A stretch of 64,000 nucleotides of DNA from Gemmatimonadaceae bacterium. GTDB taxonomy: Bacteria > Gemmatimonadota > Gemmatimonadetes > Gemmatimonadales > Gemmatimonadaceae. Position 1 is the stretch's first letter; the number at the start of each line of letters is the position of its first letter. The position numbers and the translations under genes are program-made. The DNA lies in contig JAHBVS010000001.1 of assembly GCA_019637445.1 (NCBI GenBank), forward strand, positions 529,586 through 593,585, read 5' to 3'. Positions 2,078 to 16,458 of the stretch are shown here, in pieces. The notes below the pieces were generated by a model. That model searched no databases. It was not told the origin of the DNA and saw only the letters and a program-made list of their open reading frames with translations.

Positions 2078-2368
2078 ATGGCGATTACGAAGCGTACCGT
2101 GCGCAAGAAGGCGCGCAACGCGGTGAAGGCCGCCTCGAAGACGCGCACGAAGGTCGCGAAGAAGACGCGCGCCGCGGTGAAGGCTGGCAAGGCGGCCCTG
2201 AAGAAGGCGGGTGCCGCGGCCACGAAGGCCCGCGCCGCTGCCAAGCGCGCGGGTGCCAAGGTCGCGAAGGCTGCGAAGGACAAGCGCGTGCAGCGCGCGG
2301 CCGCGGCCGTCGCGATTGCCGGCGCTGCTGCCGCTGCTACCGTCGCGGCACGCCGCCGCAAGAAGTAG
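2078..2368 (+). CDS. Small Lys/Ala-rich basic (histone H1-like) protein, probable nucleoid-associated protein
   Basis: 96 aa dominated by K/A/R; GGAG upstream of ATG. Confidence 0.7.
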   Translation: MAITKRTVRKKARNAVKAASKTRTKVAKKTRAAVKAGKAALKKAGAAATKARAAAKRAGAKVAKAAKDKRVQRAAAAVAIAGAAAAATVAARRRKK

Positions 2369-15637: not shown

Positions 15638-15898
15638 TTGAATGAAAGGCCGCTGTACCCCAAGCAGATCTTCTACTCGGAGCACGCAGCCGAGCGGATG
15701 GTCGAGCGAGGGTTCTCCAGCGAGGATGTGCGGCGCATCCTCTTCACCGGCGACGTTGCGGTGAGTTCGTACCAGCCGCCGAAGGGGCCGAGGCGACACG
15801 CTCGGCAGTTGGTCCTTCGAGGTCATCCCGCAAAGGTCGTCTTCGTTATCTGGCCCACGCGGTACGACATCATCACGGTGGAGTGGGTGACCGAATAG
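15638..15898 (+). CDS. DUF4258 (BrnT/RelE-like) toxin candidate
   Basis: YSEHAAERMVERGFSSEDVRRIL...IITV; TTG start with GAGGTG RBS. Confidence 0.78.
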   Translation: MNERPLYPKQIFYSEHAAERMVERGFSSEDVRRILFTGDVAVSSYQPPKGPRRHARQLVLRGHPAKVVFVIWPTRYDIITVEWVTE

Positions 15899-15990
15899 GT
15901 CACCCGCTCCTCCGGGAGCTCGCCTCGTTCAGGCACGTCGCAGCAGCACTCACGTTAGGATCACCATCTGCAGCACCAGGAGCGACCGCT

Positions 15991-16458
15991 ATGGCCAACA
16001 CCAAGCAGACCGCGCGGAAGCGCACGCGCAGCATCGCGCCCAAGAATGCCCAGACCGCGAAGGCGCCGCGGATGTCCTACGACCCCGCCGTCGACGCGGC
16101 CGCGATTGTCTTCGTGGCCAAGCCGCACGGCCGCCCCGTCACGCGCGAGCTCGCGCCCCACATCCGCGCCGACTACGTGGGCGAGCAGCTCGTCGCGTTC
16201 GAGATCCTGGACGCCTCAGCGATCCTGCCGTTGCAGGTCCTGCAGGCGATGGGACCGGCGGGGGCCATGCTCACCATCCTCGAGGCGGCAGCGGAGACCA
16301 GGCGCGAGCCGCAGACCATCCGCAAGGCGATCGCCGCCGGCAAGATCGTCGGCGCCGAGAAGGACGGCCGCGACTGGCGCGTGCCCCGGCACGCGCTGCT
16401 CAACTACATCGAGCAGCTCAAGCCGGCGGGACGGCCGCTCAAGTCTGCGGCGCGTTGA
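15991..16458 (+). CDS. DUF2283 antitoxin fused to excisionase-type HTH, with H3-like basic N-tail
   Basis: YDPAVDAAAIVF...DYVGEQLVAFEILDAS then LTILEAAAETRREPQTIRKAIAAGKI...WRVP; AGGAG 8 nt before ATG. Confidence 0.8.
   Translation: MANTKQTARKRTRSIAPKNAQTAKAPRMSYDPAVDAAAIVFVAKPHGRPVTRELAPHIRADYVGEQLVAFEILDASAILPLQVLQAMGPAGAMLTILEAAAETRREPQTIRKAIAAGKIVGAEKDGRDWRVPRHALLNYIEQLKPAGRPLKSAAR

What the first reader, a model, noticed from the sequence alone, without database searches (positions are those of the whole stretch)
15991..16074. Antitoxin N-terminus matches the histone H3 tail
Seen: MANTKQTARKRTRSIAP versus H3 MARTKQTARKSTGGKAP is 12/17 identical, ungapped and in register from the initiator Met, keeping K4 and K9 equivalents; a later QTAKAPR echoes H3 KAPR. 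The start has AGGAG at 8 nt, while the alternative Met (16072) that begins the DUF2283 domain has a weak RBS. Inference: a basic DNA-binding or protease-tag tail, a modification substrate, or true mimicry; convergence of a K/R/T/A-rich tail cannot be excluded.
Basis: partly seen in the sequence, partly recalled or inferred. Interest (0 to 1): 0.65.

Follow-up and report, generated by a model that had tools for sequence, protein, structure and literature searches.

The report
Antitoxin tail resembling histone H3
A prophage regulator protein really does begin with a 27-residue, strongly positive tail that looks like the start of histone H3, but its closest relatives lack that sequence, so the likeness is most probably coincidence on an ordinary DNA-binding-type arm.

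Summary
The ORF at ATG 15991 reads MANTKQTARKRTRSIAPKNAQTAKAPR before the DUF2283 domain. It matches H3 at 12/17 positions, ungapped from Met1, and at 15/28 over the whole tail. AGGAG lies 8 nt upstream.

The tail is almost certainly translated. GC3 is 0.96 and the codon score is gene-like from 15991 onward, but non-coding just upstream. Residue 28 is simply a hydrophobic family position (M/I/L/F).

The match is statistically rare. It is the only 11/16 hit in the genome's six frames, and P is about 1e-7 given the tail's own composition.

It is also a singleton:
- The nearest homologues (84%, 73% and 61% identical) carry short, different tails.
- 45 of about 100 family clusters have only two residues before residue 28.
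- None of 16 homologues in 401 genomes of the same order has the tail.
- No relative was found in the viral, metagenome, phage or plasmid sets.

The tail fails the published H3-mimic rule because R2 is Asn.

Best reading: a lineage-specific, disordered arm of +8 charge on the DUF2283-wHTH partner of a DUF4258 toxin. It probably aids nucleic-acid binding, lability, or both.

One reading is not excluded: the host carries four SET-domain genes, so lysine methylation of the tail is possible (about 3%). Interest is low to moderate.

The parts
15638..15898 (+). DUF4258 (BECR-fold, putative RNase toxin) gene, 86 aa, TTG start
   Evidence: Pfam PF14076, 41.6 bits against a cut-off of 25. The same 86-aa gene precedes the homologue in L001, L002/3 and L004-8.
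15880..15910 (+). Conserved 13-bp stem-loop straddling the toxin stop codon (TAG 15896-15898)
   Evidence: Inverted repeat I1. The predicted RNA fold contains it, z = -2.9. It is 100% paired in 4 loci, and 3 pairs change on both sides.
15978..15982 (+). Shine-Dalgarno AGGAG, 8 nt before ATG 15991
   Evidence: Read directly from the sequence. The homologues have GGAG before their own upstream ATG.
15991..16071 (+). 27-codon N-terminal tail MANTKQTARKRTRSIAPKNAQTAKAPR (net charge +8, no acidic residue), H3-like
   Evidence: 12/17 and 15/28 identity to H3. GC3 0.96 and codon log-odds +0.47 in frame, against 0.53 and -0.57 for the in-frame stretch upstream. Coil in the AF2 model.
16072..16074 (+). 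ATG for Met28, first residue of the DUF2283 domain and a possible minor internal start
   Evidence: The family column is M27/I22/L17/F8 and others. P0004 has Ile here. Only a weak GAAGG lies upstream.
16072..16218 (+). DUF2283 domain (residues 28-76), five beta strands
   Evidence: Pfam PF10049, 31.8 bits against a cut-off of 23. AF2 strands at 27-73 with pLDDT above 90.
16267..16416 (+). HTH_17 winged helix-turn-helix (residues 93-142), Xis/BldC/MerR-N type
   Evidence: Pfam PF12728, 33.3 bits against a cut-off of 27. The best Foldseek matches are BldC 6ama, Pukovnik Xis 4j2n and RdfS 8dgl, with TM about 0.75 on the target.
15991..16458 (+). Whole gene, 155 aa (P0001)
   Evidence: The 155-aa form is the one on record in NCBI nr, as a singleton cluster.

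Best explanation
The gene encodes the DNA-binding partner (putative antitoxin and autoregulator) of a DUF4258 BECR-fold toxin. The pair sits in the accessory arm of a ~50-kb prophage.

Shown, as far as sequence evidence can show it:
- Translation starts at 15991.
- The protein therefore carries a 27-residue, acid-free tail of +8 charge, with no predicted secondary structure, in front of a five-stranded DUF2283 domain and a C-terminal Xis/BldC-type winged HTH.
- The tail is a lineage-specific elaboration of a variable N-terminal extension seen in part of the family. It is usually short and usually net positive.

Inferred:
- The tail acts as a non-specific electrostatic arm that raises affinity for operator DNA or RNA.
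- As a floppy end, it may also make the antitoxin accessible to housekeeping proteases.
- The likeness to histone H3 is coincidental. It reflects a rare chance match, helped by the K/R/T/A/Q composition that nucleic-acid-binding tails share. It reflects neither common descent nor mimicry of eukaryotic chromatin.
For: Start site:
- The coding signature switches on exactly at 15991.
- AGGAG lies at -8.
- L001, L002 and L004 each have GGAG plus an ATG upstream of the domain. P0004 has Ile at position 28, so it cannot start there.
- The 155-aa form is the annotated one.

Not conserved:
- P0002 (84% identical) has MARSTQKTPAPPAPR.
- P0003 (73%) has MPRKTTPTAPAPR.
- P0004 (61%) has MPSTSP.
- P0005 and P0006 have none.
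- Of about 100 family clusters whose domain start could be placed (of 146 listed), 45 have a 2-aa lead and none is H3-like.
- 16 of 401 genomes of the same order hold a homologue, and none has the tail.
- There are no relatives in metagenome contigs, IMG/VR, phages or plasmids.
- A word search with residues 1-40 found only the protein itself.

Basic-arm trend:
- 22 of 28 family tails of at least 7 aa are net positive.
- K, R, P and T are enriched; D, E and L are depleted.
- The window's tail is the most basic.

Fold:
- The tail is coil, and the wHTH resembles BldC, Xis and MerR.

Mimic rule:
- The tail fails iM-Z-R-X-K because position 2 is N (PMC8166343).

Context:
- The pair lies in a prophage accessory arm (DUF5131 and RNase_T neighbours).
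Against: - The match is much better than composition alone predicts (P about 1e-7). It is in register from Met1 and continues to residue 27.
- In 185,579 species genomes, M-A-x-TKQTARK starts outside true H3 genes are very few. Among 2.9 million viral contigs there are none.
- No experiment shows DNA binding by the tail.
- The HTH lies about 65 residues away, at the other end of the protein.
- With a single sequence, selection on the tail cannot be measured.
- The host has four SET-domain genes.
Confidence: 0.68

Rival explanations
1. The tail is a substrate of, or decoy for, the host's own SET-domain lysine methyltransferases. Methylation at the K4- and K9-like lysines would tune antitoxin stability or DNA binding, or the phage protein would soak up the enzyme.
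For: - The genome has 4 SET-domain genes above the Pfam cut-off.
- 37 of 38 sampled genomes of the family have at least one.
- The 181-aa SET protein in L155 matches the Pfam SET model at 97 bits and carries a Cys-rich tail.
- The tail keeps T-A-R-K and A-x-T-K contexts.
- A second, host-side basic protein (2078-2368) starts with the same M-A-x-T-K-x-T-x-R-K.
Against: - The SET genes are a lineage trait that is also present where homologues lack the tail.
- None lies in the prophage or next to the gene.
- The tail is a singleton.
- The shared pattern was defined after the fact, and the two DNAs differ at synonymous sites.
- Nothing is known about the specificity of these enzymes.
Confidence: 0.04
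2. True mimicry of eukaryotic histone H3. The tail would engage eukaryotic H3 readers or writers after delivery into a host cell.
For: - 12/17 and 15/28 in-register identity, including the K4, K9, K23 and R26 equivalents.
- Ala2 predicts removal of Met1, as in H3 (established MetAP rule).
Against: - Arg2, which PHD and WDR5-type readers require, is Asn (PMC8166343).
- ARKS reads ARKR, and K14 is Ile.
- There is no signal for secretion.
- The protein is a prophage toxin-partner regulator.
- The sequence is not conserved in any homologue.
- Bacterial sequences that look like real H3 copies differ in kind. P0153 and P0155 repeat the exact ARTKQTARK(S) motif three to four times.
Confidence: 0.01
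3. Translation starts, wholly or mainly, at ATG 16072, and the tail is not made or is a minor isoform.
For: - M28 coincides with the start of the DUF2283 profile.
- 4 family clusters start exactly there and 45 start two residues earlier.
- A weak GAAGG lies 8 nt upstream.
Against: - GC3 is 0.96 and codon log-odds is +0.47 across codons 1-27, with a sharp drop upstream of 15991.
- The stronger SD is at the upstream ATG.
- Close homologues keep an upstream ATG with GGAG, and one has no Met at position 28.
Confidence: 0.07
4. The tail is chiefly a degradation tag, an unstructured entry site for Lon or ClpXP that keeps the antitoxin short-lived.
For: - The tail is predicted coil.
- Type II antitoxins are typically protease-labile (established knowledge).
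- Tails vary freely in sequence, as expected if only floppiness matters.
Against: - About half the family has no tail, so lability cannot depend on it in general.
- The consistent positive charge (22/28) is not required for a degron.
- No known ClpX N-motif was matched convincingly (by eye only).
Confidence: 0.12

Closest known systems
DUF4258 / DUF2283 two-gene modules (predicted type II toxin-antitoxin; DUF4258 = BECR-fold, RelE/ParE or colicin-like/Ntox49 branch)
   Same: An 86-aa DUF4258 gene is followed by a DUF2283-containing gene. Both score above the Pfam cut-offs, and the adjacency is kept in all four related loci.
   Different: Neither family has been tested experimentally; PMC11980606 says little is known about these families. 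Here DUF2283 is fused to an HTH_17 domain and carries a 27-aa basic tail.
FseA / QseM of ICEMlSym R7A (DUF2283-related transcription activator and anti-activator; PMC4755241)
   Same: A DUF2283 domain is used in regulating a mobile element. Here it is fused to an excisionase/RdfS-like wHTH.
   Different: Different architecture. There is a toxin partner instead of quorum-sensing partners. No direct homology test to FseA or QseM was run.
N-terminal basic arms and tails of DNA-binding proteins
   Same: A short, disordered, acid-free, K/R/T-rich N-terminus on a DNA-binding protein. The family shows a trend to positive charge.
   Different: The HTH is at the far C-terminus, so the arm cannot work exactly like the lambda arm. 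No binding data exist.
H3 N-terminal mimicry proteins (H3TMs, iM-Z-R-X-K; Chen et al. 2021, PMC8166343) and viral histone mimics (influenza NS1 ARSK)
   Same: Met1 followed by Ala, with Lys at position 4. The identity with H3 is longer than in most H3TMs.
   Different: Arg2 is replaced by Asn. The protein is bacterial and phage-borne, has no eukaryotic partner, and the motif is not conserved among orthologues.

Membership tests
DUF2283 (PF10049) | Match to the Pfam model above the gathering score | tested here: met
   31.8 bits against a cut-off of 23; residues 28-76 align to profile positions 2-49.
HTH_17 / excisionase-type winged HTH (PF12728) | Pfam match above the cut-off, plus a wHTH fold | tested here: met
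   33.3 bits against a cut-off of 27. The AF2 model matches BldC, Pukovnik Xis, RdfS and MerR N-domains.
Type II toxin-antitoxin pair | Adjacent co-oriented small genes, with a toxin-family member beside a DNA-binding partner and conserved linkage | tested here: met
   The DUF4258 gene lies 73-100 nt upstream of the partner gene in the window and in L001-L008.
Type II toxin-antitoxin pair | Toxicity of the toxin and its neutralisation by the partner | not testable with these tools
   Needs expression assays. The literature reports no tested DUF4258 member (PMC11980606).
Histone H3 | Histone fold following the tail | tested here: not met
   There is no histone Pfam hit. The model is a beta domain plus wHTH.
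H3 N-terminal mimicry proteins (H3TM) | iM-Z-R-X-K: removable Met, Arg at position 2, Lys at position 4 | tested here: not met
   The sequence is M-A-N-T-K, so Arg2 is Asn. Rule taken from PMC8166343.
Functional histone mimic | Motif kept by selection among orthologues | tested here: not met
   The tail differs in all homologues, and the protein is a singleton cluster.
Functional histone mimic | Access to eukaryotic chromatin (secretion, host association) | not testable with these tools
   Taxon names are withheld and no secretion signal was sought. The context is a prophage accessory arm.
Lambda-cI-type DNA-contacting N-terminal arm | Flexible basic arm directly adjoining the HTH and contacting the operator | tested here: inconclusive
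   The tail is basic and coil, but the HTH is C-terminal (residues 93-142). DNA contact is untested.

The most novel reading that the evidence does not exclude
The host lineage carries conserved SET-domain lysine methyltransferases, four in this genome. It also carries a Lys/Ala-rich H1-like protein whose N-terminus shares M-A-x-T-K-x-T-x-R-K with the antitoxin tail. The prophage antitoxin tail could therefore be a bona fide methyl-lysine substrate, or a decoy, in a bacterial 'histone-tail-like' marking system that controls antitoxin stability or DNA binding.
Probability: 0.03. Interest if true: 0.85.

Novelty: new member of a known kind. Interest (0 to 1): 0.25.

Why it matters
If the likeness were functional, it would be the first histone-tail-like regulatory motif on a phage toxin-antitoxin regulator, and it would hint at lysine-methyl signalling in a free-living bacterium. 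The evidence instead makes it a cautionary example. An in-register 12/17 match to a famous motif can sit on a fast-evolving, unconserved basic tail.

The useful residue is modest:
- DUF2283-wHTH partners of DUF4258 toxins often carry short positive N-terminal arms.
- The module has a conserved stem-loop over the toxin stop codon.
- Neither family has been tested experimentally.

Tried and rejected
- Word search of 5.8 billion proteins with residues 1-40: only 2 candidates, and only the protein itself scored. This test is insensitive for a 10-residue motif.
- Searches for relatives with P0001 in metagenome contigs, viral contigs, cultured phages and plasmids found nothing.
- Origin of the tail by copying from elsewhere in the genome: blastn and tblastn of the tail and its spacer gave only chance-level hits.
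- Origin by internal 45-nt duplication: one exact 9-nt repeat (CAGACCGCG), with units about 49% identical by hand count. Suggestive, not demonstrable.
- Copy from the host H1-like gene: rejected, because synonymous sites differ.
- Homologues of the H1-like ORF in 80 family genomes: none, possibly because of low complexity.
- Rfam hit for the intergenic hairpin: none.
- Internal promoter in the toxin-antitoxin spacer: none on the + strand.
- PHROGs and PADLOC gave only generic HTH hits.
- PDB by sequence found nothing significant for DUF2283.
- The organism could not be named because the tools withhold names. My guess of a Gram-negative, high-GC, mostly uncultured family rests only on a TonB-receptor-like neighbour and on genome statistics.

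Full report
**What is there**

- The + strand ORF from ATG 15991 to the stop at 16456-16458 encodes 155 aa (P0001). It begins MANTKQTARKRTRSIAPKNAQTAKAPR, followed by MSYDPAVDAAAIVF...
- Pfam places DUF2283 at residues 28-76 (profile positions 2-49) and HTH_17 at residues 93-142. Both score above their curated cut-offs.
- The gene 93 nt upstream (15638-15898) is a DUF4258 protein of 86 aa.
- DUF4258 is a BECR-fold family. It has been placed in the RelE/ParE superfamily (PMC11980606), and more recently in the colicin-like/Ntox49 branch (bioRxiv 10.64898/2026.08.28.747851). No member has been characterised.
- DUF2283 is the domain family assigned to the ICE regulator FseA, to which the anti-activator QseM shows weak similarity (PMC4755241).
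- Earlier notes of this scan place the pair in the accessory arm of a ~50-kb prophage integrated at tRNA-Asn. My own hits to DUF5131 and an RNase_T exonuclease just upstream agree with that.

**Check of the observation**

- The first 17 residues match H3 at 12/17 positions, ungapped from Met1.
- The in-register identity continues at K24, A25 and R27, giving 15/28.
- AGGAG lies at 15978-15982, 8 nt before the ATG. ATG 16072 (M28) has only GAAGG upstream.

**Is the tail translated?**

- A codon model was trained on 1,625 long ORFs of the same genome. Codons 1-27 have GC3 0.96 and +0.47 log-odds per codon; the gene-wide mean is 0.39.
- The in-frame 108 nt upstream (15883-15990) have GC3 0.53 and -0.57. 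The coding signature therefore starts at 15991.
- In three related loci, an ATG preceded by GGAG also lies upstream of the domain. In P0004 the residue at position 28 is Ile, so translation there cannot begin at the domain start.
- Across the family, the column aligned to M28 reads M27/I22/L17/F8 and others. It is a hydrophobic strand residue, not a conserved initiator.
- The 155-aa form is the one deposited in NCBI nr.
- A minor internal start at 16072 cannot be excluded.

**Is the match more than chance?**

Within this genome, yes:
- Of 6.7 million six-frame windows, this is the only one matching ARTKQTARKSTGGKAP at 11/16. The next best are 9 (once), 8 (35 times) and 7 (530 times). Extrapolating that decline gives roughly 0.005 expected at 11.
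- Sampling from the tail's own K/R/T/A-rich composition gives P(>=11/16) = 1.2e-7.

Across 185,579 prokaryotic species genomes:
- The DNA pattern for M-A-x-T-K-Q-T-A-R-K occurs 98 times. About 80 of these are true 136-aa H3 genes on contaminant eukaryotic contigs.
- Only a handful of hits lie in plausibly bacterial ORFs.

In 2.9 million viral contigs, all 39 hits are real H3 genes. Many lie on contigs labelled as giant-virus MAGs, and none is a phage gene.

Equally good matches are therefore rare, not frequent. My rough estimate from background amino-acid frequencies is about 0.1 to 1 such N-termini by chance among the roughly 6e8 proteins of those genomes. The scan also looks at very many N-termini against many memorable motifs. 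Statistics alone therefore cannot decide.

**Conservation decides against a selected H3-like motif**

- A word-indexed search of 5.8 billion proteins found only five relatives. Their tails are:
  - P0002 (84% identical): MARSTQKTPAPPAPR
  - P0003 (73%): MPRKTTPTAPAPR
  - P0004 (61%): MPSTSP
  - P0005 and P0006 (39%): essentially none
- A full HMMER pass over 1.84 billion representatives gave 146 family members.
- For about 100 of these the domain start could be placed. Of those:
  - 45 have just two residues (MR or MK) before position 28.
  - 28 have tails of 7 aa or more.
  - None is H3-like.
- In 401 genomes of the same order, 16 carry a homologue and none has the tail.
- No relative exists in JGI metagenome contigs, IMG/VR, cultured phages or plasmids.
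- P0001 is a one-member cluster on one contig.
- At the DNA level, the block after the toxin stop and the junction GCGCCGCGG-ATG (A-P-R-M) are conserved. The roughly 130 nt between them in the window cannot be aligned with the roughly 60 nt in the relatives. The tail is thus a recent, lineage-specific replacement or expansion.
- A 9-nt exact repeat 45 nt apart hints at an internal duplication but does not prove one.

**What the tail probably does**

- AlphaFold2 with a 66-sequence alignment gives mean pLDDT 90. It shows no secondary structure for residues 1-26, five strands at 27-73, and a winged HTH at 93-142.
- The HTH superposes on BldC, mycobacteriophage Pukovnik Xis, RdfS and MerR-type N-domains.
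- The tail has 4 Lys, 4 Arg and no acidic residue, for a charge of +8.
- Among the 28 family tails of at least 7 aa, 22 are net positive. K, R, P and T are enriched; D, E and L are depleted. The window's tail is the most basic.
- My inference is a non-specific electrostatic nucleic-acid-binding arm, possibly doubling as a floppy protease entry site. It would sit on a protein whose C-terminal wHTH binds operator DNA and whose DUF2283 domain deals with the toxin.
- None of these activities has been tested for any member.

**Comparison with real H3 mimics**

- The published rule for H3 N-terminal mimicry proteins is iM-Z-R-X-K: removable Met, Arg2 and Lys4 (PMC8166343).
- The tail reads M-A-N-T-K. 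It meets the Met-removal and K4 conditions but lacks Arg2.
- ARKS is ARKR, and K14 is Ile.
- The genome-wide pattern scan also turned up bacterial sequences that look like deliberate copies. On a 70-kb, 70%-GC gammaproteobacterial MAG contig with ordinary bacterial neighbours (M16 peptidase, a YidC-type insertase, a HEAT-repeat protein), there are two small ORFs behind an AGGAGG and a TGgTATAGT -10-like element:
  - MARTKQTARKKSS...GARTKQTARRTSGARTKQTARKSTGGR
  - MATKFPKKKSSGGRSTGGKAPRKKSSGARTKQTAR
- A second member of this kind comes from a JGI metagenome (P0155).
- Those ORFs repeat the exact motif. The window's tail does not.

**What keeps a small door open**

- The genome has four SET-domain genes above the Pfam cut-off. 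37 of 38 sampled genomes of the family, and 58 of 101 of the order, have at least one.
- A host-side 96-aa Lys/Ala-rich, H1-like ORF (2078-2368, codon log-odds +0.53) starts MAITKRTVRKKARN. It shares M-A-x-T-K-x-T-x-R-K with the tail.
- That relaxed pattern occurs twice in this genome and in none of 300 other genomes of the family.
- However, the pattern was defined after seeing both sequences. The tblastn hit behind it had E = 2.3. The two DNAs differ at synonymous sites. The SET genes are a lineage trait unrelated to the presence of the tail.
- I rate a methylation-substrate or decoy role at a few percent.

**Verdict**

The H3 resemblance is an unconserved singleton, best explained by chance plus compositional convergence on an ordinary basic arm. 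The gene is a new member of the untested DUF4258 / DUF2283-HTH module family.

Noticed in passing
L094 (CAYNUS010000007.1, minus strand) 3064-2889 and 2866-2762; P0155 (JGI sample 3300056388): Two adjacent small ORFs on a 70-kb, 70%-GC 'uncultured Gammaproteobacteria' MAG contig consist of repeated exact H3-tail motifs. They read MARTKQTARKKSS...GARTKQTARRTSGARTKQTARKSTGGR and MATKFPKKKSSGGRSTGGKAPRKKSSGARTKQTAR, and sit behind an AGGAGG RBS and a TGgTATAGT -10-like element. Neighbours are bacterial (M16 peptidase, YidC-like protein, HEAT-repeat protein). A 71-aa relative, P0155, has four ARTKQT copies. All four ARTKQTAR copies in the 1.2-Mb genome lie in these ORFs. This is a much better candidate for a true bacterial H3-tail mimic than the window's tail.
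   Followed up: partly
window 15880-15910 (+): A 13-bp stem-loop straddles the stop codon of the DUF4258 gene. It is conserved in all four related loci, with 100% pairing and three pairs changed on both sides (for example GTGACC/GGTCAC, GTGGCC/GGCCAC and GTGCGC/GCGCAC). There is no Rfam match. It may set the toxin-to-partner expression ratio or mRNA stability.
   Followed up: partly
window 2078-2368 (+): A 96-aa Lys/Ala-rich, histone-H1-like ORF (MAITKRTVRKKARNAVKAASKTRTKVAKK...) lies downstream of a uvrA-like gene, on the host side of the prophage. It has GGAG 8 nt upstream and gene-like codon usage. This exact sequence is absent from the 15-billion-protein collection, and no homologue was found in 80 family genomes. 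Its N-terminus shares M-A-x-T-K-x-T-x-R-K with the antitoxin tail. That pattern occurs twice in this genome and in 0 of 300 family genomes.
   Followed up: partly
own genome C2:478636-478938, C1:624911-625222, C3:154105-154377, C1:1643621-1643920 (outside the window): The genome has four SET-domain genes. A small SET protein of about 180 aa with a Cys-rich post-SET-like tail is near-universal in the family (37 of 38 genomes sampled). Endogenous substrates are unknown.
   Followed up: partly
L010-L098 (genome-contig hits): Many GTDB species-representative MAGs carry canonical eukaryotic H3 genes, often in arrays repeating about every 4.6 kb. Examples are several 'Saprospiraceae', 'Nitrospirales', 'Paracoccaceae' and 'Poribacteria' MAGs with CBD... 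accessions. This most likely reflects mis-binned or chimeric host (sponge or invertebrate type) contigs. Hits also fall on a 156-kb 'Actinomycetota' contig (L072) and a 986-kb 'Nitrospirales' contig (L091), which I did not inspect.
   Followed up: no
L020 (CAWFIL010000006.1, 169-kb contig) 4064 onward, + strand: A 98-aa predicted membrane protein starts MAKTKQTARKGRTKTSTPAAS. It is another apparently bacterial N-terminus with the TKQTARK core, probably a chance case.
   Followed up: no
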